Virus record (IMG/VR): IMGVR_UViG_3300037067_012889
Coordinates: 64,001 to 128,000 of that record
DNA from: a virus
Taxonomy: Duplodnaviria > Caudoviricetes
Reading direction: 5' to 3' (one strand)
DNA: 64,000 nt
The notes under the pieces were generated by a model that had not been told where the DNA came from, did not search any database, and saw nothing but the letters and a program-made list of their open reading frames with translations. Below, one piece after another: positions 3,945-59,624 of the stretch; position 1 is the first letter of the stretch; each line of letters starts with the position of its first letter. A program made the translations under genes and the position numbers.

Positions 3945-4103
3945 TTCGGAATCTCCTGTGTGACCTCGAACGTTTATAGCACCAGAGCAGGAGATTATTA
4001 ACCGGCTTGCGACGGCGATCAAAGCGGTTAACAATCACCGCCCATCGTGCTATAACTTGGCATGGGGAGGGAGGTCCGACCCAGAAACACAGGAGATTTC
4101 GAA

Positions 4104-5666
4104 ATGCTCAGCTTCACCGAACAGTTTCTCGCAGCTCGCAAGGTCGGCGTTCCTCTCATCGGAATCGAAAGCAGCGATCCTGGTGCGACGATGAAGACGC
4201 TGGTCAAGGACTGCTCCGAAACGCCTGTTTCTGCTGCTGTCGTTACGTGGAATTCGGCCACTGGTGTTGTTGGCAACAACGTTGCTGGTGAGAAACTGGC
4301 ATCGCGTCTGAACGAAGACCCCGACATCGCCGCTCCGATCGCTTTTCTGACCGCAATCGCCAGCGACGTCACGCCGGGATGGACCATCATCGGGATGCAA
4401 GCGGCAACCGATTGGTTCGACAACCCGGTCGTTCGTCAGGCCATCTGGAATCTCCGCGACAACTTCAAGCGTCGTGGTTGCACTCTCGTCCTGCTCTCGG
4501 ACGTCATCCAGCTACCGAACAGCCTCAAAAACGACGTCGTCATCATCGAAGAGCCGATGCCGAACGAAGAGCAGTTGGCCGGAATCGTCAAGACGCTCGA
4601 CGCACAAACGAGCCGTTGCGATTGTGGCGGCGTCAAGGGCTGCACGAAGTGCAAGGGGACTGGCATCAAGACGAAGCGGCCGTTGTGTGACGAGGACACG
4701 GTTGGCCGCGTGGTCGAAGCCGTGAAGGGCTTGCCGTACTTCGGTGCTGAACAGGTCGTGGCGATGGCACTCCGCAATCAGCCGGTCGCCGGACAGAAGC
4801 CCACGAGCTGCATCGACCTCGAACACTGCTGGAGTGCGAAGCGGAAGCAGGTCGAGCAGACGAAGGGGCTGTCGATCCATCGTGGCGGCGAGACTTTCGA
4901 TGATCTCGGTGGTCTCGACCAAATCAAGACCTACTTGAGTCGCATCATGACGGGCCGCAAGGCTCCGAAGCTCATCGTGTGGCTCGACGAAATCGAGAAG
5001 ACCGGCTTGGCAAATCGTGGCGACACGAGCGGCGTCAATCAGGACCAGGAAGGTACACTGCTTTCCTGGATGGAAGATTTCGACGTCTTCGGTGTCATGC
5101 TCCTTGGCGTTCCGGGTTGCGGCAAGTCGGCCATCTGCAAGGCGGTTGGTGCCGAATACGATCGCGTCGTCATCCGAATCGATCTCGGTGCGATGCAAGG
5201 CTCGCTGGTCGGCCAAAGCCAGACCAACATCCGAGCAGCCTTGAAGGTGGTGCAGGCCATCGGTGGTACCGACACGCTGTGGCTGGCGACGAGCAACAGC
5301 ATCAGCGGCTTGTCCTCTGCGATGAAGTCCCGATTCACCGACACCTTCTTTTTCGACCTGCCGCCGAAGGAAGAGCGTCTGCCGATTTGGAAGGTGTGGC
5401 TCGACAAGAACGGCCTCTCGGACAAGCCTTTCACGAACGACGAAGGCTGGGTCGCCCGCAACATCAAGAAGTGCTGCGACAAGGCGTTCCGAATGGGCAT
5501 CTCCATCGCGGAAGCCGCCACATACATCACCCCTGTTGGCCTGACCGACCGCGAGGACATCAAGAATCTGCGGTCCTGCGCCGACAACCGGTACCTCTCG
5601 GCCTCTCATGCTGGCGTCTACAAGGTGCCGAAGACCGTCGAGCCGGAACGGGCTTTGAGCCTCTGA
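4104..5666 (+). CDS. Ycf46-like AAA+ ATPase with permuted core (Walker B before Walker A) and Cys-rich insertion
   Basis: DLGGLDQIK, LIVWLDEIEK, GVPGCGKS, LVGQSQ, ATSN, SRF..FFFDLP motifs; degenerate N-terminal AAA-like domain. Confidence 0.85.
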   Translation: MLSFTEQFLAARKVGVPLIGIESSDPGATMKTLVKDCSETPVSAAVVTWNSATGVVGNNVAGEKLASRLNEDPDIAAPIAFLTAIASDVTPGWTIIGMQAATDWFDNPVVRQAIWNLRDNFKRRGCTLVLLSDVIQLPNSLKNDVVIIEEPMPNEEQLAGIVKTLDAQTSRCDCGGVKGCTKCKGTGIKTKRPLCDEDTVGRVVEAVKGLPYFGAEQVVAMALRNQPVAGQKPTSCIDLEHCWSAKRKQVEQTKGLSIHRGGETFDDLGGLDQIKTYLSRIMTGRKAPKLIVWLDEIEKTGLANRGDTSGVNQDQEGTLLSWMEDFDVFGVMLLGVPGCGKSAICKAVGAEYDRVVIRIDLGAMQGSLVGQSQTNIRAALKVVQAIGGTDTLWLATSNSISGLSSAMKSRFTDTFFFDLPPKEERLPIWKVWLDKNGLSDKPFTNDEGWVARNIKKCCDKAFRMGISIAEAATYITPVGLTDREDIKNLRSCADNRYLSASHAGVYKVPKTVEPERALSL

Positions 5667-5925: not shown

Positions 5926-6882
5926 ATGACCGAGATCGAAAAAGCCCAATCAGAAGACGCTCAAGCCGCAAACGTGCTCGATTTGACAACCTGCTTGCTG
6001 CTCCGATTCCACAAAACCGGCCTCATTCGGAAGGGCAACATCACCAAAATCCAAACGATTGCCAACAAGAAACGTCTTGGACTCAACAAGAAGATTCTGA
6101 CCAGCGGGAATTACGACAGCATGATGCTCATCGCCCGCGACATTCGCCGCTACGCCGTGAAGCGTCAGGTCCCAGGGTCGCCGTTCTCGGAAGGAACTCA
6201 CCTGATCCCATTGCCACTCGTCGACGACCTGAACGACAAGATCACGAATGCTGAGAACGCGTACAACACGTGGGCCGACATGTTCGTCGACGAATACGCC
6301 AACCTGGTCGAGGAAGCGAAAGAGGAATTGCAAGATCAGTTCGATCCCAACAACTACTTCGACGTGAGCACCGATTCAGGTCGCAACGCACTGCGTGCCA
6401 AGTTCTGGGTAGAGCGGCGATGGTTCGACTGGTCGCCGTCCAGCGACAAGAAGGTGTCGAGTGTGGTTGCCTCACAGGAAAGGCGTCGTCAAGCAACCGA
6501 AATCCAGGATATGGCACTGCAGGTCAAAGCAGCGTTGCGGATGGGCTTGAAGAAACTCATCGACCATCTGGTCGAGCGTCTGACGCCTACCCCTGGTGGC
6601 GCTCGCAAGATGTTCGCTCCGACGACGATCACGAAAATCGCTGATTTCTTGGAGTTGTTCTCTGCCCGCAATGTCTGCGGTGACAAGGAATTGGCACTGC
6701 TCGCCGATCAAGCACGTGAGGTGCTCGACGGTCAAACTGCAGAATCTATCAGAGGCGACGAAGAAGTACAATCGGTCGTCGCCGGACATATGTCAACGAT
6801 CAAGGAAGGGTTGGACAAACTGCTGCAAGACATGCCAGAACGTGTCATCAACCTGGACGATGATGAGGATGATGATGAATAA
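5926..6882 (+). CDS. DUF3150-like alpha-helical protein
   Basis: PF..GTHLIP..LV..L...F..EY..L..A..EL..QFDP..Y pattern; adjacent to AAA ATPase. Confidence 0.55.
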   Translation: MTEIEKAQSEDAQAANVLDLTTCLLLRFHKTGLIRKGNITKIQTIANKKRLGLNKKILTSGNYDSMMLIARDIRRYAVKRQVPGSPFSEGTHLIPLPLVDDLNDKITNAENAYNTWADMFVDEYANLVEEAKEELQDQFDPNNYFDVSTDSGRNALRAKFWVERRWFDWSPSSDKKVSSVVASQERRRQATEIQDMALQVKAALRMGLKKLIDHLVERLTPTPGGARKMFAPTTITKIADFLELFSARNVCGDKELALLADQAREVLDGQTAESIRGDEEVQSVVAGHMSTIKEGLDKLLQDMPERVINLDDDEDDDE

Positions 6883-7210
6883 GCTCGTCAAATTACTACT
6901 ACAGGTCCTAGTGTGGCCTGTAGTAGTAATTTTTCGATGGTTCGATGGTGATCGATTATCATCACTTCAAGCATGGTCTGATGAAGTCTTAAAGGACGAC
7001 CAAGACCTCGACAATGAGGGATTTCTAAAGAAGGTCCAAGAAGATAATCTCACCAAAACACTATTCCCTACCGAATTTGCTAAGAAGGTAGCAGAGATTT
7101 ACGGTGCAACGGGGTGTGTTAGCACTGCTGCTCCTCTCGACATCCAAAATAAGGACTCTGACAAGCCAGAAATAGATACAGGCGACGAAAGAGTTATCTG
7201 TCTCGATTAA
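6875..7210 (+). CDS. hypothetical protein with N-terminal hydrophobic helix
   Basis: 3' part of ORF 6596..7210; GAGG RBS; overlaps upstream stop. Confidence 0.55.
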   Translation: MNKLVKLLLQVLVWPVVVIFRWFDGDRLSSLQAWSDEVLKDDQDLDNEGFLKKVQEDNLTKTLFPTEFAKKVAEIYGATGCVSTAAPLDIQNKDSDKPEIDTGDERVICLD

Positions 7211-7267
7211 TAATTACCCGGATTCGTGCTATAACTGGGTAGCGGGAAAGCAAATACAGGAGCAATC

Positions 7268-7714
7268 ATGTCACACGTCGTCGCGATCAAGCTCGAAATC
7301 AAAGACCTGAAAGCATTGGCCGAAGCAGCGAAAGCTCTCGGAGCCGAATTCGTCGAAGGTAAAAAGACCTTCCGATGGTACGGCAGATGGGTGAACGACT
7401 ACAGCGAAGAGAATGCCGCGTACAAGAACGGCATCGACCCGAAGGACTACGGGAAGTGCGATCACATCATCAGTCATCCCGACTGCTGCTACGACATTGG
7501 ACTCGTCAAGCAGTCGAATGGCACGTTCCTTGTCGTAGCCGACGAGTGGCATGCTGGTGGATTGGCACAGGTGTTCGGAAGTGGAATGTCGAAGCTCAAA
7601 CAGCGGTACGCGGTTTCCGTCGCCGCTCGAACCATGCGAGCCAAGGGATGGCGTGTCTCCGAGCGACCCGGCCAAAAGGCCGACAGCGTTCGTCTTGTCT
7701 GCACCAAAATGTGA
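7268..7714 (+). CDS. DUF1257 (Ycf35-like) protein
   Basis: MSHVVAIKLEIKDL.AL..A...LG, YDIGL....GTF..VAD.W, KLKQRYA..VA......G..V pattern. Confidence 0.75.
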   Translation: MSHVVAIKLEIKDLKALAEAAKALGAEFVEGKKTFRWYGRWVNDYSEENAAYKNGIDPKDYGKCDHIISHPDCCYDIGLVKQSNGTFLVVADEWHAGGLAQVFGSGMSKLKQRYAVSVAARTMRAKGWRVSERPGQKADSVRLVCTKM

Positions 7715-7724
7715 AAGGGAGAAA

Positions 7725-7910
7725 ATGCAAACGATCACGATCGATATCGATACCGATGGGTCACCAACGATCAAAGTCAACGGTGTCCCCGGCAAGTCGT
7801 GCAAGGACGTCACAAAAACCGTTGAACGTGCTCTCGGGACAGTCACCTCGGATAAATCGACGCCTGAAATGTACCAACCGGAGAAGGCCCAACGACATGT
7901 CAGCCAATGA
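7725..7910 (+). CDS. DUF2997-like protein
   Basis: ITIDI..DG...IKVNG..GKSC..VT..VERALG....D..TPE.Y pattern; follows DUF1257. Confidence 0.75.
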   Translation: MQTITIDIDTDGSPTIKVNGVPGKSCKDVTKTVERALGTVTSDKSTPEMYQPEKAQRHVSQ

Positions 7911-25008: not shown

Positions 25009-25024
25009 TATTTAAATGTATCTT

Positions 25025-25112
25025 GGCCGTGTGGAGAAATCGGTAAACTCAACAAATTTAAAATTTGTCACCTATTCAAACGGGTTTGCGGGTTCGAATC
25101 CCGCCACGGCTA
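25025..25112 (+). tRNA. trnL: tRNA-Leu(TAA), CCA not encoded
   Basis: acceptor GGCCGTG/CACGGCT, anticodon arm ACAAA-TTTAAAA-TTTGT, long variable region, T-arm GCGGG-TTCGAAT-CCCGC, discriminator A. Confidence 0.9.
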
Positions 25113-25147
25113 CTAACCTCCATTACGTAAATAATGTGGAGGTTCGA

Positions 25148-25840
25148 ATGATACCAGATAATACCCTCTTCGAGATGGCACACGAATCCTATTCAGTATG
25201 CGACGTTATGATAAAGCTTGGCTTAGTACCTGCGGGAGGTAATCACAGATTATACAGCAAGCGGCTTGCAGGATTCGCCTTTAAAAAACGACCACCGTTA
25301 GGTGCTGCGGGTAAGAGTAGGGCAATCATCGATTATCTGGTACTTGACGGTCCGGTGATCTTGACATCCAAGCTAAAGAAGAAGCTATTCAATGCAGGTC
25401 TCAAAAAGAAAATCTGTGAAATATGTGGGCAGGGGCCTGTTTGGAATAATAAACCACTAACCTTCCATCTAGATCATGAAGATGGAAATAATAGGAATAA
25501 TCGATTAGAAAACCTACGTGTTTTATGCCCTAACTGCCACACTCAAACTCCGACGTACGCAATTAGTGTGCAAAGAAAAGAACCCCGAGAAGTAAGAAAT
25601 GGCGTCATAAAACCGAGAAAACTCATAAGATGTAAGTCTTGTGACTGTCGATTGAAGACTCGCAGAAAGACTGGTTTGTGCCGTAAATGCTTCGAAGTTA
25701 AATTTCCACCACCACGCAAAGTGTCGAATAGACCAGAAAAGAACGTACTATTAAAAGAGATAGCCGAAATGGGTTATTGTGGTGTTGGTAGAAAATATGG
25801 CGTATCTGATCACGCTGTTCGAAAATGGGTAAAAACTTAA
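25148..25840 (+). CDS. HNH (homing-type) endonuclease
   Basis: CEICG..W..KPL..HLDH.DGN..NN.LENLR.LCPNCH; C-terminal zinc finger and HTH; GGAGG RBS. Confidence 0.88.
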   Translation: MIPDNTLFEMAHESYSVCDVMIKLGLVPAGGNHRLYSKRLAGFAFKKRPPLGAAGKSRAIIDYLVLDGPVILTSKLKKKLFNAGLKKKICEICGQGPVWNNKPLTFHLDHEDGNNRNNRLENLRVLCPNCHTQTPTYAISVQRKEPREVRNGVIKPRKLIRCKSCDCRLKTRRKTGLCRKCFEVKFPPPRKVSNRPEKNVLLKEIAEMGYCGVGRKYGVSDHAVRKWVKT

Positions 25841-51752: not shown

Positions 51753-52799
51753 ATGACTCTCACTACTAGTGAGTGGATTAATTTGTATCAATCTACGAGT
51801 AATTCAGATCGAATCAAGGCCGGTAAGGTCGTAGTTGGTATGTCGCCAGAACAGATCGCCGATATAAAAAAAGAACTTGAACATCGCAAAATCCCAATCA
51901 AAGGCAAGCTTGCTGCTATGATTAAGTTTCCAGAGCAAGCAAAGGCTACGAGCAACAACACATCGAAAGTCTTTTGGGGTGAAGACGAGTGGGATTTCTT
52001 AGTTTCAAAAGTTTCTGCTCTCGCTCTCAAAGAACCAACGACTGGTCTCGCTTGTTTAGCCGGTCGAATCATGGAGCAAATGCCTGTTCATCAAAGAAGA
52101 CCTACACACGCAGGTCTTGTATCTGATCTAAACAAGCGATTGATCGAATACAATCGAGAACATTGGCTCGAAGTAGAGCAAGAATTAAGAACAGCGAAGG
52201 ATGAACTTACACGACGAAAAGAAGCATTGTCGAGGGAAGAGGTGATCGCTTCTCTCACCGATGAAGAGATCGGGCAATTCACACAACGAATCATCGACAA
52301 TCTATCACCAGACGATCTGTGCTCTCAATTCTCAGAACAAACCGTTCTAGATTGTATATCTCAGGAAGCTGTCGTAGCACATGCGATTGCTAAATCTTTT
52401 GCCAGATTTGGAGAGCACACGAGAATACTTGAAGAAAATCTGACGATGCTTTCGCGTCTACTCTCAGAATTACCACAGGAGAAGATTCGGAGACAACTTC
52501 AAGAAAAGGCGGCTGCTCCTGCCAGATTACCGCAGGTAGCATTTGTCGGATTCAAAGCTGAACAAATCGCAATCGTGGCCGATTCGTTACGTGGGCGAAT
52601 TAGAATTGACGTGATCGACAAGAATCGCAGCAGATTCGACTCATCAGCAGAAATCATCATCATATGGACGAAATTTATATCTCACTCTTTTGAAGCGCAA
52701 GTAATCCAGAACATGAAGAAAGGTGCACGCCTAATTCGCTTCAGTGGCGGATTAGAAGCAGCATCTAGAGAAATCGATCGTGCCATTAGGATGGTATAA
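51753..52799 (+). CDS. hypothetical protein with coiled coil and C-terminal DUF2325-like domain
   Basis: VAFVG...[11 protein letters not shown]...GG C-terminal pattern; GGAG RBS. Confidence 0.55.
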
Positions 52800-55700
52800 C
52801 CCAACTCAGCACGCCACTGACTACTCTTAATACGTAGTCTCCATCCAATGTCGGTGCGGCTGGGTAACCTGAAATTCCAGATGCACCAGCAGCACCAGCT
52901 GGACCAGTTGCACCACCAATGCCAGCTGGACCAGTTGCACCAGGATCTCCGCCACCCGGTCCCGTTGCACCAGTAGGTCCAACCGGGCCTGATGCTCCAC
53001 CGGTATCTCCCTGAGGCCCAGTAGCACCAGAAGCACCAATGCCAGTCGCACCGGTCAAACCAGTCGCACCGGTCAAACCGGTTGCACCGATACCGGTCGC
53101 ACCTAGCGGACCAGTAGAGCCGGTTGCACCAGTAAAGCCAATAACACCAGTTGATCCCGCTATTCCAGTAGAACCAGTAGAACCCTTGGTGCCAGATGCA
53201 CCAGTAACAGACGTTCCACTAGCACCAGCAATACCCGTGGAACCAGTAGAACCAGCAATACCTGTAGAACCAGTAGCACCAGTAGGCCCAGCGGGGCCAG
53301 ATGCACCGCCCGTATCTCCTTGAGGCCCAGTAGCACCAGATGCTCCTACACCAGTAGCACCAGCAGTACCAGTAGCACCGGCAATACCAGTAGCACCGAC
53401 CCCCGTAGCACCTATAGGGCCTGTAGGGCCTGTAGAACCAGTGGCACCAGCACTACCAGAAAGCCCAGTTGCTCCTGTTGCACCAGCCGGACCAGAAGGA
53501 CCAGAAGCACCGCCAGTATCTCCCTGAGGACCTTGTGGTCCAGTGGATCCAGTAGCACCAGTAGGACCAGAAGCACCACCTGTTGGTCCTTGTGCTCCGG
53601 TTGCACCAGAAGCACCCAATCCTGTAGCACCAGTGGCACCTCCATATCCCGTTATTCCAGTAGCACCAGTAGGACCTGTGTATCCAGTAGCACCAGAAGG
53701 ACCGGAAGCACCACCAGTTGGACCTTGTGCTCCTGATGCCCCAACCACGCCAGTGGAACCAGTAGCACCAGCAACCCCGGCACCGGTAGCACCACCTAAA
53801 CCAGAAGCACCAGTAGGTCCAACAACACCGGTGGAACCGGTGGCACCAGCAACCCCGGCACCTGTAGCACCGGTTAAACCAGTAGCACCATCAACACCGA
53901 TTGTGCCAGATGCACCGATTGGACCTGTTGAACCTGTAGCACCTGTTAAGCCAGTAGCACCAGTGGCACCTGTTAAACCGGTAGCACCATCGACACCGAT
54001 TGTACCGGACGCACCGATTGGACCTGTCGAACCAAGACCAGTGGCACCAGTGGCACCAGTTAAACCGACAGAGCCTGTGGCACCAGATGCACCGTCAATA
54101 CCAGCACCGGCAGGTCCGGTTGCACCAGTTGCACCAAGGCCAGTAGCACCAACGAGACCACTTGCGCCTTGAATGCCAGTAGAACCAGTTGCACCACTAA
54201 TACCCGTAGCACCAGTAAGACCAGCACCAGAAGCACCCTGTACGCCCGTTGCACCTTGAACACCAGTAGATCCAGTTGCACCAGAAGGACCAGAAGAACC
54301 ACCAGTTGGTCCTTGTGCTCCGGTCGAACCAGAAGCACCTTGAACACCCATTGGACCGGTCGCACCGACAGGACCACCAAATGGGCCAGATGCACCGGTT
54401 AAACCGGTAGATCCAGGTGCACCGGAAGCACCAATGCCACTTGCACCTTGAACGCCAGTTGCACCGATACCAGTAGCACCGGATGCCCCAAGACCAGTCG
54501 CACCGGTCAAACCAGTTGCGCCACCAGTGCCAGTAGCACCATCAAGCCCAGTGGCACCTACAGTACCAATACCAGTCGCACCAGTGGCACCTATCGGACC
54601 ACCAGCAGGCCCGGTGGCTCCGTCGATACCGGGTGTTCCGGTTGCACCAATCACACTTAAACCAGGTACACCGCTTGCGCCAGTCGGACCAACTGCACCA
54701 GTAGAGCCAGTGGCACCAATTGGACCGCCAGAAGGCCCTGTGGCACCAGTATATCCAGTAGCACCAGAAGCACCAATCCCTGTAGCACCGGCTATTCCAA
54801 GACCAGTTGCACCAGTTGCACCACCTACTCCAAAGCCAGTGGCACCAGTTGCACCTGCCTGACCAGTGGCACCAACAGGACCACCAGAAGGCCCAGTTGA
54901 CCCTTCTTGTCCAGCAGGACCTGTAGCACCTGTCAGACCAATACCGCTCGCACCTTGTACGCCGGTCGCACCAGAAGAACCAGCAGGACCAGATGCACCA
55001 GTAGGACCACCAGCAGGGCCAGATGCGCCTGTTTCACCTGTTGCACCAGAAGCGCCGGCTATACCTGTTGCACCAGATGCACCAAGACCGGTGGCACCAG
55101 TAGCACCGATAGGACCGCCCGCAGGACCAGTAGCACCAATCTGGCCTATACCCGTTGCACCTGTTGCTCCGGTTGGACCGCCACTTGGACCGGTGGCACC
55201 AGCTATACCAGTCGATCCTGTTGCACCTGTGAGTCCAGTACCTGTTGCTCCTCTGGGACCAGAAACACCAGTAGAACCAGTAGCACCAGACTCTCCGGTT
55301 GCACCTGTAGGTCCTCCTAAAGGACCAGTAGCACCGGTCAAGCCCGTAGAGCCAGTTGCACCGGGACCAGTTGCACCAATTGGACCGATGGGGCCAACAG
55401 AACCTTGAGCACCAGTGGAACCAGTAGCACCTGTTGGGCCACCACCGGGACCAGTTGCACCAGCAGGACCGGCCGCACCCGATGCCCCCGTAATGCCACT
55501 TGAAGTCCACGACAAATGCTTCAATCCATCTGTGACTAGGACTTGGCCAACCGTGCCATCGACATTAGGGAATTGCAAATTGCTAATAATAACATGCTTA
55601 CCGCTGCCCCATGCAGAAACCTCCAAATCAGTCCCGGTAACTGAATGAACAACAGATGTCTGCAAGCCATCGGTGCTACTATATGATAAACCAGCATTAT

Positions 55701-58700
55701 CAACAAGACGACCGTTCGTACCAGCAAATGGAATTCTGTTTGGTGTCAGCGCAACACCATCGTTCAAGACAAAACCTTTCCTGGCGTTATCTGTAGTGAT
55801 GGTGAAATAAATATCGTCGGTTGTAAATTCAAAAGCACCGGCTTCCGGAATAGCAAGAACAACACCACTAGCGAATTTTAGTAACGCCGTTCCTGGTGCT
55901 GCACTACCAGCCTTTATATGTAGTCTTGCTGTTGGATTATAGAGGCCGATACCAATAGCTTCGCCATTTATAGTGACATTTTCACTATTTCTATCACGTT
56001 CAATTAGATTATAAAAATTAGTTAAACGTTCTGCATCGTATGCAGGAACACCAGCGCTTTCAGTAAGAGTAACAGTGCCGAGCCATCTATATCCCTTATT
56101 ACTACCGGTAGTGGCGTAGACCGGAATACCGTCTAACGTAGCTAGGCCATCAGAATCGACTTGCGACCAATAACCAGCAGCCAAATCATCGGCAAACACA
56201 CCAGCTATGTGATCTACTATACATGCATAAACGTTAACGTTCGAAACACGGGTACCAACACCATACGATGTCCCAGTAACCCATTCTTCTATGCGACTTG
56301 TCGATTCTGGTGAATACTCTACAAACTTAATTTCACCGATCATGCAATACCAGAAAATCGTGCTATACCACAAAGCCTGATATGGCATCGTGCATGCCGT
56401 GGCATCTATTCTATAATAACGATATGCTACAGTGTTGTTAAATGTGAAATAACTCGACCAAATCCCAACACCGGCTGGTGGATCTATACCTACTTTCGTA
56501 TCGAGAACCGACCAGTTCACATTATCATTTGATCCAGATAATGTGAAATCTCGCGGTAGCGAAGGATAATACATCTTCGCTTTAAACGCATATTTATTTA
56601 TAACCTTCTCATTGTGCTCACCGAAATCGTATGTAATCCATACGGGAGATTCAAAGGGATCTCCTGGGGTATAGGTATTGCCACCGATTCGTACGCCCCA
56701 CCCAGGATTGCTTGGCGTGAGGTCTTGGTTAAATGCATACCAACCATACAAATAGATATCAAGTGTTTCCCCATATATAACACCGGTATCGCTGGTAATG
56801 ACGACATTCGGAATAGGTGTCGTGAACGACGTCATTGCGGTAGTACATGTGGTAGTTCCAGGGTTGTACTTACCATCTGATGGTATAAACTTCCAAGGTG
56901 CAAATTCTATATCAAAAGATGTCGGTGTACTGTAAGATGCAAATACGTCGTAAGTTCGGTATGAAATGAGCGGAGCCGCGTCCATGTCGTTGACAATATT
57001 CGACACCGATGGTGCCACGGCCGTATTAACGATATCCCATGTAGATGTGGAATTGTTATAAAGCCGAATCTGGTTAGACTCGACAAAATTCCACACTAGA
57101 TTAGTAGCACTAATGACCTTTAAGTTACCATCGACAACGTCCGTTGGTGCCACACCCGCACCGTTATTTGCCCAAGATAAAGTACCAGTTCCATCTGTGG
57201 CGAGTACCTGCCCAGATAAACCATTTGTTCTTGGAAAATCAAGAGAACCAAGGAAAATATTGCCAATGCTACCAGTATCGATTACGACATCGCCAGTATC
57301 TTTCTTTTTCTCGACAGTGTTGTAGAAATTACCAATCAAGGCGTTACTAAAATTAGCAACGCCGTTAACTGAGTATAACGAGACTGTACCAAGCCATCTA
57401 TAGCCCTTGTAGAGGCCAGAGTTAGCATAAATCGGAACACCATCGAAAATACCCAGTCCATCTGGATCTGATAATATCCACCTACCACTAGCCAAATCAA
57501 CATCAAAATCGTTTGATGTATGAGCAGAAATACATGCATATTTGCTGCTCTCGTGCAATACCCGATCGCCGATTTTGTAGCCAGTTGCTGTAATCCAATA
57601 TCCAGCTCTTGTGTTGGCCGACACTCCACGAACTAACTTTACAGCCCCAAGCTCTACATAGTATTGTGCTGTGCCTGCATCAGCTGGACAGTTAGTTACT
57701 AATCTATAATAACGATAAGCTGTCCCATTGCTAAATGTGTAATATGCGCTCCATGTCTGATCACCAGGGCCTGTTATACCCGTTCTAGTATCAAGCAGTA
57801 TAAAAGTCGTTCCATTATGCGATCCATATAAACTGAACGCTGTTGGAAACGCAATATTGCTGTATGCTTGCAAAGCATACTTATTTATAATCGTTGGTAC
57901 ATTAAAATCGTATTCTATCCATGCAGATGTGGCCAGAGGTGTTGGGACCGACGACCAATATTTAGTGATATCACCACTAAATGCATTCCATGCACCGTAC
58001 AATTCACTGCTCGCACTTGCAACTTGCGGTGCTGGTATGCTGTTCGCAGTCATTGTAGTTGTGCATGTAGTAGTACCAGGATTAGCACTACCATTAATCG
58101 ACGCAACAACCCAAGGCGCAAACGTGAGATCGAATGACGTAAGTGAATCATATGTAGCGAAAACGTCATATACTAGATCATATGTTAAAGCATCACCACC
58201 CATATCGGTGGCTGTATTCGACGCTGTTGGTTCTGTCGCAACATCGACTATAGCCCATGCTACAGAGGTTGCATTATATAGTCGTATATGGTTTGATGAA
58301 TAAAAGCTCCAAACCAATGTGCTTCCAGCACTCGATCGCAATCGGCCACCAAGAGTATCGCTACTTTCTACTCCTGGCGTTATGACACTATTGACGTATT
58401 GGATTGTCGCAACGTCATATGGCAATGCTGGTGCAGTAGCGTGATTGTTTATGAATTGATTACCAGTACCAAGATCAGTAGCTGGTATCCTGAAAGTATT
58501 ATGGTTGATCGTATTGTCTGTAGAGGTGGCGTCTAAAGAAAACGATGAGCCAACCAGACGTTCAACAAGTGTATTGTTCTCTATGGTATTAGAATCGGAA
58601 TCAACGAGCTTAACAGAGTCTAGATTGTCGATAATCCTATTATTGTAAATCGAATTGGTATCGGAGTTTTGGACATAAAATCCAGTATTGTTGGATTGGG

Positions 58701-59343
58701 ACAAACTCTCGGTAACAGTGCATTTTGTAGCATATACCAGAGAGTATCCAGTACTCACATTCAATGAGCTATTATTCTCTTCACAATTATTTCCTGTAGA
58801 ATTAAATATCCCGAGACCATCTGCATTATTTGTAGTAACATTATCATGTAAAATGTTATTATCAGATGAATCTCGTAACAAAATACCAAATTCAGTATTG
58901 TTATCAGCGGTATTGTTGACTACGATATTATTACTACTGGCTGCAAGCTCAATGCCATTCTTGTTACCAGTACAAACACATAAATCGATTTTATAGGTAT
59001 CAACACTACCCGAATTATCAAGTAAGATACCTGATTGATTAGGGGCCGTCGCTGTTACTTTGAATCTGCTAAAAGATCCAGCAGCAGCCGTTATATGGAC
59101 AGCTGGTGTCACACCATTACCAGTCAATGTCGTTGTGTCGCTGTCATCAGTATAGATATCGAGAACTTTATTAATTACTAGGTTCTCAGTATAGGCACCT
59201 GGCCTTACATAGATCACATCTTTTTCAGCTGATGCATCAATAGCGGCTTGGATTGTTGTATATTCTGAATCAACAGCACCAACGGTTGTGGTATAATCCG
59301 CTGCAGCTTTTGTGACTATCCTATCAGTATTTGTTAACATCAT
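52786..59343 (-). CDS. giant fibre/adhesin (2185 aa): parallel beta-helix, duplicated F5/8-like plus CBM5/12-like module, ~870-aa collagen-like region
   Basis: TIQAAID..V..G.Y.E and NN-rich beta-helix repeats; F.L.GS.....YRYYR; W..T.Y..G.RV; Gly-X-Y repeats; ATGA coupling to upstream gene. Confidence 0.8.
52860..55495 (-). repeat. collagen-like Gly-X-Y coding repeat (GAT/GAS/GST/GPT-rich, interrupted)
   Basis: 9-nt periodic GCACCAGT-like units. Confidence 0.9.
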
Positions 59344-59624
59344 TCTCCCTCTGCCGTTATATGAACGACAACGTCGTTGGCTGCACACTCACTGAAAAGA
59401 AGATCGCTAAGATTTGCCAGTGTTACTTTATAAACTTTAATAACGACCGACGTAGAAGTCAGACTAATGATTTTGTGAGACAATGGATAAATACTATCTG
59501 CTAGACCACCGTCCTTTAGCTGAATTCCTACACATACTACAGGCGGTTGGCTGAACGGAACATCGAAGTTCCAGACAGCACCACCAACAGCATAATTTAT
59601 CCTGGCGTCAAGTATTGTATTCAT
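59340..59624 (-). CDS. small beta-rich protein, likely fibre-associated (H-type-lectin-like pattern)
   Basis: F..PFS.PPVV.V...I.S.T......V...V...A.G; coupled to fibre gene. Confidence 0.45.

What the first reader, a model, noticed from the sequence alone, without database searches (positions are those of the whole stretch)
4104..5666. AAA+ ATPase with Walker B placed BEFORE Walker A: a block-swapped nucleotide-binding core
Seen, in one open frame: DLGGLDQIK - LIVWLDEIEK..GDTSGV...TLLSWME (Walker B plus following helix, ~4971-5076) - GVMLLGVPGCGKS..RIDLG..LVGQSQ.NIR.AL (Walker A, strand 2, pore loop, ~5091-5260) - LWLATSN (sensor 1) - SRF..FFFDLP. Established: in Ycf46-type and classic AAA+ domains the order is Walker A, strand 2, Walker B, sensor 1, Arg finger. 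Two adjacent blocks are exchanged while both flanks stay in place, so this is a non-circular permutation (strand order 3-1-2-4-5). Catalytic Lys, Asp-Glu, Asn and one Arg are intact, which suggests an active enzyme with rewired topology. I know of no described example, but could not search.
Basis: partly seen in the sequence, partly recalled or inferred. Interest (0 to 1): 0.92.

Follow-up and report, generated by a model that had tools for sequence, protein, structure and literature searches.

The report
AAA+ ATPase with Walker B before Walker A
A jumbo-phage gene encodes an apparently functional AAA+ motor protein whose two central sequence blocks are exchanged, so Walker B comes before Walker A, and this rewired order is shared by a very large, undescribed family of phage and bacterial proteins.

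Summary
ORF 4104-5666 (+, 520 aa) lies in a 364-kb virus record. It has a degenerate AAA-like N-domain followed by a classic-clade AAA+ domain. In that domain the block beta3(Walker B)-loop-alpha3 (aa 290-329) precedes the block beta1(Walker A)-alpha1-beta2-pore loop-alpha2 (aa 330-388). Sensor 1, the Arg finger and the lid follow in normal order.

Evidence for the swap:
- Pfam AAA and profile-profile alignment both give out-of-order hits.
- Exchanging the blocks in silico restores one collinear alignment to canonical-order phage relatives.
- All 210 family members that a motif test could classify have the permuted order, and the other 47 align collinearly with them or carry inteins. A profile search gives 3518 clusters at E<=1e-30.
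- E296, K341, N398 and R410 are invariant in 242 of 242 sequences, and D295 in 239.

Evidence that the fold is kept:
- AlphaFold gives pLDDT 92.8 with exactly five core strands.
- Coevolution places the Walker B strand between the sensor-1 strand and beta2, which is the canonical 5-1-4-3-2 sheet.
- On a tree the permutation maps to one branch.

The gene sits in a conserved AAA / DUF3150-like / DUF1257 / DUF2997 module that canonical-order relatives share. I found no description in the searchable literature. ATPase activity, oligomerisation and biological role are inferred, not shown. The scan's earlier notes concern this same stretch, not other DNA.

The parts
4104..5666 (+). Whole gene: 520-aa two-domain AAA+ protein (P0001). 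An upstream in-frame ATG at 4062 exists, but homologs align from the Met at 4104.
4104..4853 (+). N-terminal D1-like degenerate AAA-type domain plus lid (aa 1-250). It has no P-loop lysine and its strand order is canonical.
   Evidence: AlphaFold secondary structure. The whole model aligns to p97/Cdc48/Rix7/NVL D1-D2: Z 18.5, 403 aligned, rmsd 4.9.
4617..4664 (+). CxC...CxxCxGxG zinc-ribbon-like insertion (aa 172-187) in the N-domain. It is present in only about 35 of 242 family members.
4890..4970 (+). Start of the active AAA module: DLGGLD motif, helix alpha0 and a linker ending in 'PK' (aa 263-289). In canonical relatives this linker leads into beta1; here it leads into beta3.
4971..5090 (+). 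Block B (aa 290-329): strand beta3 with Walker B (D295/E296, nt 4986-4991), the loop at the pore-loop-2 position (GDTSGV), and helix alpha3. It lies ahead of Walker A.
   Evidence: Pfam profile 47-96. hhalign out-of-order hit 290-328 to template 352-391. The boundary scan is optimal at 290/330/388. Coevolution couples it with beta4 and beta2.
5091..5267 (+). Block A (aa 330-388): beta1, Walker A GVPGCGKS (nt 5106-5129, K341), alpha1, beta2, pore loop 1 L368-V369-G370 (nt 5205-5213), and alpha2.
   Evidence: Pfam profile 1-54. PDB sequence hits to p97, Vps4 and spastin. K341 is invariant in 242/242.
5268..5363 (+). Block C (aa 389-420), in normal position: beta4 with sensor-1 N398 (nt 5295-5297), alpha4, Arg finger R410 (nt 5331-5333), and beta5 (FFFDLP).
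5364..5666 (+). Alpha-helical lid and C-terminal region (aa 421-520), then the stop codon.
5926..6882 (+). Co-encoded 318-aa protein with an acidic tail. It is homologous to proteins next to permuted AAA genes elsewhere, some of which carry a faint DUF3150 hit.
   Evidence: There is no Pfam hit of its own.
7268..7714 (+). DUF1257 (Ycf35-type) protein, 148 aa.
   Evidence: E 1.3e-8, over cut-off
7725..7910 (+). DUF2997 protein, about 61 aa.
   Evidence: E 1.2e-13, over cut-off

Best explanation
The gene encodes a genuine classic-clade (Ycf46/SpoVK/Vps4-like) AAA+ ATPase. Its active domain carries an ancient non-circular permutation that is fixed across the family. Along the chain, the beta3(Walker B)-alpha3 block has changed places with the beta1(Walker A)-alpha1-beta2-alpha2 block, giving strand order 3-1-2-4-5. 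The three-dimensional core keeps the normal 5-1-4-3-2 sheet, so Walker B D295/E296 still sits between the P-loop and sensor-1 N398. All beta-alpha-beta crossovers stay on their usual face, and only three short connections are rewired (alpha0 to beta3, alpha3 to beta1, alpha2 to beta4). Inferred mechanism: K341/S342 bind ATP, D295 holds Mg2+, E296 activates water, N398 senses the gamma-phosphate, R410 acts in trans from a neighbouring protomer of a ring, and pore loop L368-V369-G370 pulls on a substrate. The N-terminal pseudo-AAA domain would serve as a scaffold. The most economical origin is a tandem duplication of the beta1...alpha3 segment followed by loss of the first A block and the second B block. 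This happened once, in a phage or mobile-element lineage of AAA / DUF1257 / DUF2997 module ATPases. Shown here: the order, its conservation, residue invariance, a high-confidence model, coevolution contacts and a single origin on the tree. Inferred: catalysis, ring formation, the origin mechanism and the biological role, which I take to be remodelling or unfolding of a partner from the co-encoded module.
For: Order and homology: Pfam pieces are out of order. The hhalign second hit aligns aa 290-328 to canonical 352-391 with probability 96.9%. The in-silico swap raises blastp from 63-80 to 98-110 bits and hhalign from 384 to 480, leaving a single hit. Of 150 random adjacent-block swaps, the mean score fell; all five top-scoring swaps, the only ones listed, overlap the true blocks. 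The best boundaries are 290/330/388. Family: all 210 members the regex could classify are permuted, none canonical. The 150th-best 50%-identity cluster is still collinear at E 1e-158, with 3518 clusters at E<=1e-30 and 326 loci in species-representative bacterial genomes. Junction lengths are uniform. Function retained: E296, K341, G338, N398 and R410 are invariant in 242/242 and D295 in 239/242. Inteins are inserted exactly in the P-loop (GVPG|C) of six homologs. Fold: AlphaFold gives pLDDT 92.8 and pTM 0.84 with exactly five core strands. Mean-field DCA gives an in-register beta3-beta4 ladder (292-393, 295-396, 297-395, 298-397), beta3-beta2 pairs (292-359, 293-358), and alpha3-alpha2/alpha4 pairs (316-404 is the top score at 5.4, against a column-shuffle maximum of 2.1). 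Against p97 D2 (3cf0_A) the permuted model aligns 202 residues at 2.3 A (Z 16.7), while a canonical-order relative aligns 263 at 2.7 A (Z 25.2). The deficit is about the size of one swapped block. Single origin: the permuted sequences form one side of one branch with support 100. Canonical-order relatives (Aeromonas phage HJ05, Rhodobacter phage RcMenchie) carry the same downstream DUF1257/DUF2997 genes.
Against: There is no experimental structure or ATPase assay. Several beta3 couplings (scores 1.4-1.9) lie within the upper tail of the shuffle null, and only three exceed its maximum. Canonical-order sampling for the tree was narrow (the HJ05-like clade plus three phages), and block order was normalised in silico before alignment. 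Pore loop 1 has Leu rather than an aromatic residue. In this protein only one Arg of the usual RxGR pair is kept (K408, R410).
Confidence: 0.8

Rival explanations
1. The permutation is real, but the family is a pseudo-ATPase. It binds nucleotide or merely scaffolds the module without hydrolysing ATP.
For: The N-domain is already a degenerate AAA-like domain. Some members have a weakened P-loop, for example Tunturi_3 gp103 with GVPGVSKS. Position 340 is Ala or Ser in about a third of members. Pore loop 1 lacks an aromatic residue in most members.
Against: The Walker A Lys, Walker B Glu, sensor-1 Asn and Arg finger are invariant in 242/242 sequences, with about 206 effective sequences. Such conservation is not expected without catalysis. 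Inteins target the P-loop.
Confidence: 0.1
2. Block B does not complete its own domain. Instead it inserts into the neighbouring protomer as a 3D domain swap, so each active site is built from two chains.
For: Coevolution cannot distinguish intra-chain from inter-chain contacts. The rewired block sits at the N-terminal edge of the domain, after a 7-8-residue linker.
Against: The AlphaFold monomer packs the block in cis at pLDDT 87-95. The alpha3-to-beta1 and alpha2-to-beta4 connectors are only about 3 residues long and invariant in length, which ties block B tightly to its own beta1.
Confidence: 0.05
3. The hhhhDE segment before Walker A is not homologous to Walker B. It would be a convergent look-alike in an N-terminal extension, and the domain would simply have lost beta3/alpha3.
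For: Short acidic-after-hydrophobic motifs do arise by chance.
Against: A 39-column profile-profile match to the canonical Walker B/alpha3 segment has E 1.7e-10. The GDxSG and G(T)xLxWM(E/Q)(D/E) motifs are shared with canonical relatives. The core has five strands, not four. Coevolution pairs the segment with beta4 and beta2.
Confidence: 0.03
4. It is an assembly chimera or sequencing artefact in this one contig.
For: None.
Against: The same order with the same junction lengths occurs in hundreds of independent assemblies from JGI, ENA, NCBI and Logan, down to about 37% identity. These include an isolated phage (Tunturiibacter phage Tunturi_3 gp103) and a finished Lignipirellula cremea chromosome.
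Confidence: 0.01

Closest known systems
Canonical-order phage AAA-ATPases of the AAA/DUF1257/DUF2997 module (Aeromonas phage HJ05 gp65, Rhodobacter phage RcMenchie gp62; also Mycobacterium phage Firecracker gp100 and Streptococcus satellite Javan368 ORF2)
   Same: They share the two-domain architecture (pseudo-AAA N-domain plus active classic-clade AAA). All motifs are the same: GGL(D/E), Walker A GxPGxGKS, VGxSE pore loop, hhWhDEh(E/D)K, GDSG, TWMQE, ATxN and RF(D)E..F..LP. HJ05 and RcMenchie have the same downstream DUF1257/DUF2997 genes.
   Different: They have the normal order Walker A - beta2 - alpha2 - Walker B - alpha3. Identity to the window protein is only about 21-26%. They keep both Arg of RxGR.
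Ycf46 / SpoVK / Vps4 group of classic-clade AAA+ ATPases (COG0464; Pfam PF00004)
   Same: The Pfam AAA score is above the gathering threshold. Source annotations of relatives use this name. The best structural matches of the active domain are p97 D2, Vps4, spastin and fidgetin-like 1, at rmsd 2.3-3.4 A. Cyanobacterial Ycf46 (slr0374) is likewise of unknown function and sits in a three-gene stress operon (PMC7496141).
   Different: The collinear core order is broken. Sequential aligners lose 50-60 residues relative to a canonical relative. Orthology to cyanobacterial Ycf46 was not tested.
Type II AAA+ proteins (p97/Cdc48, NVL/Rix7, Drg1/Afg2)
   Same: The whole model aligns as D1-D2 (Z 17-18.5, about 400 residues).
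   Different: D1 here has no Walker A lysine. There is no N-terminal adaptor domain of the p97 type. D2 is permuted.
Circularly permuted GTPases (YlqF/RsgA/YqeH type; from my own knowledge, not tested here)
   Same: They are a precedent for a P-loop NTPase family that works with its nucleotide-binding motifs in a non-standard order along the chain.
   Different: Those are true circular permutations (G4-G5-G1-G2-G3) in the TRAFAC GTPase class. Here an internal segment is permuted while both flanks stay in place, in the ASCE/AAA+ class.

Membership tests
AAA+ ATPase, classic clade (Pfam PF00004) | Profile score above the curated threshold | tested here: met
   53.7 bits against a cut-off of 21.2, in two stretches. 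The genome scan shows these are profile 47-96 followed by profile 1-54.
AAA+ ATPase, classic clade (Pfam PF00004) | Walker A GxxxxGK[ST], Walker B hhhhDE, sensor-1 Asn, SRH Arg finger | tested here: met
   G335-S342, D295/E296, N398 and R410 are all invariant or nearly so in 242 homologs.
AAA+ ATPase, classic clade (Pfam PF00004) | Collinear core order beta1(WA)-alpha1-beta2-alpha2-beta3(WB)-alpha3-beta4(S1)-alpha4-beta5 | tested here: not met
   The order along the chain is beta3-alpha3-beta1-alpha1-beta2-alpha2-beta4-alpha4-beta5. The canonical relative P0258 shows the normal order.
AAA+ ATPase, classic clade (Pfam PF00004) | Spatial 5-1-4-3-2 parallel sheet with Walker B next to sensor 1 | tested here: met
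   This is indirect. DCA gives a beta3-beta4 ladder and beta3-beta2 pairs. The model has five strands at high pLDDT. 202 residues superpose on p97 D2 at 2.3 A.
AAA+ ATPase, classic clade (Pfam PF00004) | Aromatic-hydrophobic-Gly pore loop 1 | tested here: inconclusive
   The loop is L368-V369-G370. Position 368 is Leu in 179/242 and Tyr or Trp in 24. Canonical relatives have Y/F/L-V/I-G.
AAA+ ATPase, classic clade (Pfam PF00004) | ATP hydrolysis and ring (hexamer) assembly | not testable with these tools
   This needs biochemistry or cryo-EM.
Ycf46 (cyanobacterial/plastid) | Orthology to slr0374-type Ycf46 | not tested
There are only COG-style names on relatives.
Phage/mobile AAA - DUF1257 - DUF2997 module | AAA gene followed on the same strand by DUF1257 and DUF2997 genes | tested here: met
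   Window genes at 7268-7714 and 7725-7910. Tunturi_3, HJ05 and RcMenchie have them too. 42 of 54 bacterial loci with full flanks have all three partners.
IetA/IteA anti-phage ATPase (PADLOC, NCBIfam NF042959) | Full-length profile match above the cut-off | tested here: not met
   29.6 bits against a cut-off of 510, covering only the Walker A segment 331-380.

The most novel reading that the evidence does not exclude
This would be the first recognised natural AAA+ (and, to my knowledge, ASCE P-loop) ATPase family whose catalytic core is non-circularly permuted, with Walker B N-terminal to Walker A, yet remains a working ring motor. It would show that the beta1-to-beta5 connectivity conserved across AAA+ proteins is not required for function. 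It would also provide thousands of natural sequences, plus canonical-order sister proteins from the same gene module, as a matched pair for studying folding, topology and intersubunit signalling.
Probability: 0.6. Interest if true: 0.88.

Novelty: new variant of a known kind. Interest (0 to 1): 0.8.

Why it matters
To my knowledge, the order Walker A then Walker B and the beta1-alpha1-beta2-alpha2-beta3 connectivity are treated as fixed in AAA+ and other ASCE ATPases. Annotation HMMs, structural aligners and classification schemes assume that order. This family scores only partial or "faint" AAA hits in the public pipelines and has stayed "hypothetical". A natural, abundant and strongly conserved internal permutation offers several things:
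- It shows that the fold tolerates rewiring of three crossovers without losing its catalytic residues.
- It gives a natural test case for how chain topology affects folding, the alpha3/ISS-type intersubunit communication and pore-loop coupling, with canonical-order relatives as built-in controls.
- It is a rare documented example of a non-circular permutation arising in nature, probably by duplication and deletion.
- It flags a widespread four-gene phage and mobile-element module of unknown function, which is also multi-copy in Acidobacteriota genomes.

Tried and rejected
Misassembly is excluded by family-wide conservation instead.
- Complex prediction with three copies of aa 250-520 plus ATP returned "no answer" (score 0.01). 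This is not evidence either way.
I substituted DCA contacts and a comparison of sequential-aligner coverage against a canonical-order control.
- Literature searches for permuted AAA, P-loop, ATPase or Walker order found nothing relevant. DUF3150, DUF1257 and DUF2997 have almost no literature.
- Known defence-system ATPases: PADLOC and NCBIfam gave only partial IetA/IteA/TRIP13 hits over the Walker A segment, so membership is rejected.
- The name "DUF3150" for the neighbour at 5926-6882 is not supported by Pfam on this protein. It rests on faint precomputed hits in homologs, so I call it DUF3150-like.
- Relics of a duplication intermediate (a second Walker B after alpha2, or long junction inserts) were not found in 242 members.
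- The other AAA+ gene of the phage (G000:C1:30050-30343) has Walker A before Walker B and looks like a RarA/MgsA-type ATPase; that name is my reading of the translated sequence, not a tested match. It was not useful as a comparator.
Full report
WHAT IS THERE. The window is bases 64001-128000 of a 363,885-bp IMG/VR virus record that CheckV rates as complete, so this is a jumbo phage. Other genes in the window fit that: an NAD-dependent DNA ligase, a DNA helicase, a nucleotidyltransferase, an HNH endonuclease and a 2200-aa collagen-like tail fibre. ORF 4104-5666 (+) is open and encodes 520 aa. An in-frame ATG at 4062 lies upstream, but homologs align from the Met at 4104.

OBSERVATION.
- DLGGLD
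- PK-LIVWLDEIEK (D295/E296)
- GDTSGV
- EGTLLSWMED
- GVMLLGVPGCGKS (K341)
- VVIRIDLG
- LVGQSQ
- TLWLATSN (N398)
- SRF (R410)
- FFFDLP

Pfam AAA (PF00004) scores 53.7 bits overall. It does so as two out-of-order pieces: profile 47-96 at nt 4926-5084 and profile 1-54 at nt 5094-5255. PDB sequence searches align only aa 330-384 (Walker A to pore loop) and aa 398-444 to p97, Vps4, NVL and spastin, and skip the region where Walker B should be.

NOT AN ARTEFACT: A LARGE FAMILY. A word-index search found more than 900 relatives. The 120 listed range from 99% to 37% identity, nearly all at full-length coverage. Twelve diverse members show the same order column by column.
- By a motif test, 111 of 121 and 99 of 136 further representatives have Walker B within 80 residues before Walker A and none after it. 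No member has the canonical order.
- The members the regex missed either carry inteins or have motif variants. The non-intein ones align collinearly with the rest.
- An exhaustive profile search over 1.84 billion representatives gave 3518 clusters at E<=1e-30. The 150th best still matches the permuted profile end to end at E 1e-158.
- Members occur in an isolated phage (Tunturiibacter phage Tunturi_3 gp103, annotated "ATPase").
- They occur in the finished Lignipirellula cremea chromosome.
- They occur at 326 loci in species-representative bacterial genomes, mostly Acidobacteriota (Bryobacteraceae, Terriglobia), Planctomycetota, Armatimonadota and Nitrospirales. Some lie on Mb-scale contigs, and some genomes hold several copies.
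- The three junctions have the same length in more than 90% of 242 aligned members.

HOMOLOGY OF THE BLOCKS AND THE SWAP TEST. tblastn against phage genomes turned up distant relatives with the same N-terminal domain but the normal order: Streptococcus satellite Javan368, Aeromonas phage HJ05, Rhodobacter phage RcMenchie and Mycobacterium phage Firecracker gp100. A search seeded with HJ05 gp65 gave 120 more relatives, 114 canonical by regex and none permuted.
- Native P0001 against Firecracker gives two out-of-order HSPs: query 330-520 to subject 301-552, and query 289-325 to subject 359-397.
- Exchanging aa 287-328 with aa 329-390 in silico raised blastp from 63-80 to 98-110 bits. E-values improved from 1e-14..1e-19 to 1e-25..1e-29 against all four relatives, with fewer gaps.
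- At profile level, the native family against the canonical family gives a main hit (score 384, 435 columns). It also gives a second, out-of-order hit of aa 290-328 to template 352-391 (probability 96.9%, E 1.7e-10).
- With the columns swapped there is one hit (score 480.5, 462 columns, E 1.3e-61) and the second hit vanishes.
- In the control, 150 random adjacent-block swaps lowered the summed Smith-Waterman score on average (1280 against a native 1460). All five top-scoring swaps, the only ones listed, overlap the true blocks.
- A boundary scan peaks at B = 290-329 and A = 330-388 (score 2437).

FOLD. AlphaFold2 with a 107-sequence alignment gives pLDDT 92.8 and pTM 0.84. The active domain has exactly five strands and the usual helices, in this order along the chain:
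- alpha0 272-282
- beta3 290-294
- alpha3 311-325
- beta1 329-335
- alpha1 341-351
- beta2 355-359
- alpha2 369-387
- beta4 391-397
- alpha4 405-410
- beta5 413-417
- lid from 422

The canonical relative P0258, folded the same way (pLDDT 91.4), has the same elements in the textbook order. Foldseek and VIA-align match the whole model to p97/Cdc48/Rix7/NVL D1-D2 (Z 18.5, 403 aligned). The N-terminal 250 residues are therefore a degenerate AAA-like domain without a P-loop lysine.

The active domain alone aligns to p97 D2 (3cf0_A) with 202 residues at 2.3 A (Z 16.7). The canonical relative aligns 263 residues at 2.7 A to the same chain (Z 25.2). The figures are 198 against 248 on 6g2v and 201 against 254 on Vps4 4d82_B. 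A sequential aligner thus loses 50-60 residues, about one swapped block, while the rest superposes equally well.

INDEPENDENT CONTACT EVIDENCE.
- The strongest couplings link alpha3 to alpha4 (316-404, score 5.4), alpha3 to alpha2 (326-384, 322-384, 314-373) and alpha3 to beta4 (322-393).
- The Walker B strand couples in register with the sensor-1 strand (291-392, 292-393, 295-396, 297-395, 298-397) and with beta2 (292-359, 293-358, 293-356).
- It shows no coupling to beta1 or beta5 among the top pairs.
- Column-shuffled controls reach a maximum of 1.6-2.1. The alpha3 pairs and three beta3 pairs exceed that. The remaining beta3 pairs lie in the upper tail but form a coherent parallel ladder.
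- This is the canonical 5-1-4-3-2 arrangement, with E296 beside S397/N398.

Geometrically, the rewiring only lengthens three right-handed crossovers by one or two strand positions. That is compatible with the 3-residue (alpha3 to beta1, alpha2 to beta4) and 7-8-residue (alpha0 to beta3) connectors. This last point is inference.

IS IT ACTIVE? In 242 sequences, E296, K341, G338, N398 and R410 are invariant. D295 is present in 239/242, S/T342 in 241/242 and G370 in 240/242. Six homologs carry inteins of at least two types inserted exactly at GVPG|C in the P-loop, a site class that inteins typically occupy in functionally constrained proteins. Most members have ELRRRF at the SRH, whereas this protein has AMKSRF. 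These data argue for a working ATPase, but this remains inference.

ORIGIN. On a FastTree of 70 permuted sequences (block order normalised) and 64 canonical sequences, the permuted group is one side of a single branch (support 100, one state change). Together with the uniform junctions, this indicates one ancient event.

The junction sequences fit a tandem duplication of the unit from the G of "PKG" to the first residues of beta4, followed by loss of the first A block and the second B block. "PK" is kept before beta3. "VF", which is the start of the canonical beta4, is kept before G-hhLLG. No intermediates were seen, so this is inference.

CONTEXT AND FUNCTION. Downstream on the same strand lie three genes:
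- A 318-aa acidic-tailed protein at 5926-6882. Its homologs sit beside permuted AAA genes in metagenomic phage contigs, in L. cremea and in Tunturi_3, where gp96 is annotated as an HNH endonuclease, which may be a mis-annotation. Some homologs have faint DUF3150 hits.
- A DUF1257 protein at 7268-7714.
- A DUF2997 protein at 7725-7910.

In 54 bacterial loci with full flanks, 42 have all three partners, always co-oriented with the AAA gene. The canonical-order phages HJ05 and RcMenchie carry DUF1257 and/or DUF2997 just downstream of their AAA gene. The permuted enzyme is therefore a topological variant within an existing module, not a new system.

Nothing matches known defence systems beyond partial Walker A hits. 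PHROGs has the family as phrog_8638, function unknown. In cyanobacteria, DUF2997 and DUF1257 (ycf35) form a conserved cluster with fed7 (PMC4284462). Ycf46 (slr0374) sits in a three-gene stress operon of unknown function (PMC7496141). Whether that operon's partners are DUF1257 or DUF2997 proteins I could not verify.

My working model, held with low confidence for the biological role, is a ring-forming substrate-threading or remodelling ATPase that acts on or with the three small module proteins.

NOVELTY. Four literature searches on permuted AAA, P-loop or Walker order found nothing relevant. The library covers only open-access papers and bioRxiv, so a prior description elsewhere cannot be excluded. 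From my own knowledge, the only well-known motif-order permutation in P-loop NTPases is the circularly permuted GTPases, which belong to a different class and are a different kind of permutation. I therefore rate this a new variant of a known kind, of high interest to AAA+ and protein-topology specialists.

The scan's earlier notes are first-reader notes on this same stretch (e1-5658621) and on the module (e1-5658638), not findings on other DNA.

Noticed in passing
window 5926-7910 (+), with the AAA gene at 4104-5666: There is a conserved four-gene module: AAA, a DUF3150-like 318-aa acidic-tailed protein, DUF1257 and DUF2997. It is shared by permuted and canonical-order relatives in phages and is present at 42 of 54 bacterial loci with full flanks. 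Its function is unknown.
   Followed up: partly
homologs P0007, P0008, P0067, P0076, P0083, P0095 (not in the window): Inteins of at least two kinds (Pfam PF14890; PF05203/PF14528) are inserted at the same P-loop site, GVPG|C, of permuted family members. The canonical relative P0262 also carries an intein.
   Followed up: partly
window 4617-4664 (aa 172-187 of the AAA protein): A CxC...CxxCxGxG zinc-ribbon-like insertion (DnaJ-type motif) sits in the degenerate N-domain. It is found in only about 35 of 242 family members.
   Followed up: partly
L014-L093 (bacterial genome loci): Several Acidobacteriota MAGs carry four or more separate copies of the permuted AAA locus, for example Bryobacter sp. 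Bin_54_2 and MFD05580.bin.1.127. Some copies lie on 2-3.6 Mb contigs. This suggests repeated prophage or mobile-element insertions, or a host-domesticated module.
   Followed up: no
L004 9696-10655 (Tunturiibacter phage Tunturi_3 gp96): This gene is annotated 'HNH endonuclease' in GenBank, but it is homologous (E 1e-17 to 1e-32) to the DUF3150-like module protein. It may be a mis-annotation; no HNH profile was run on it here.
   Followed up: partly
window 25016-25840 (+) and 25025-25113 (+): A tRNA-Leu(TAA) gene lies inside the 5' end of the ORF that encodes an HNH endonuclease (the PHROG match starts at aa 47). The true start of the endonuclease is probably downstream of the tRNA.
   Followed up: no
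window 52786-59388 (-): A 2200-aa ORF has many collagen-like tail-fibre repeats (several PHROG tail-fibre families, E down to 5e-102).
   Followed up: no
G000:C1:30050-30343 (-), outside the window: A second AAA+ gene of the phage (383-aa open frame). Pfam AAA positions 2-126 match collinearly, and Walker A precedes Walker B. From the translated sequence it looks RarA/MgsA-like, which I did not test.
   Followed up: partly
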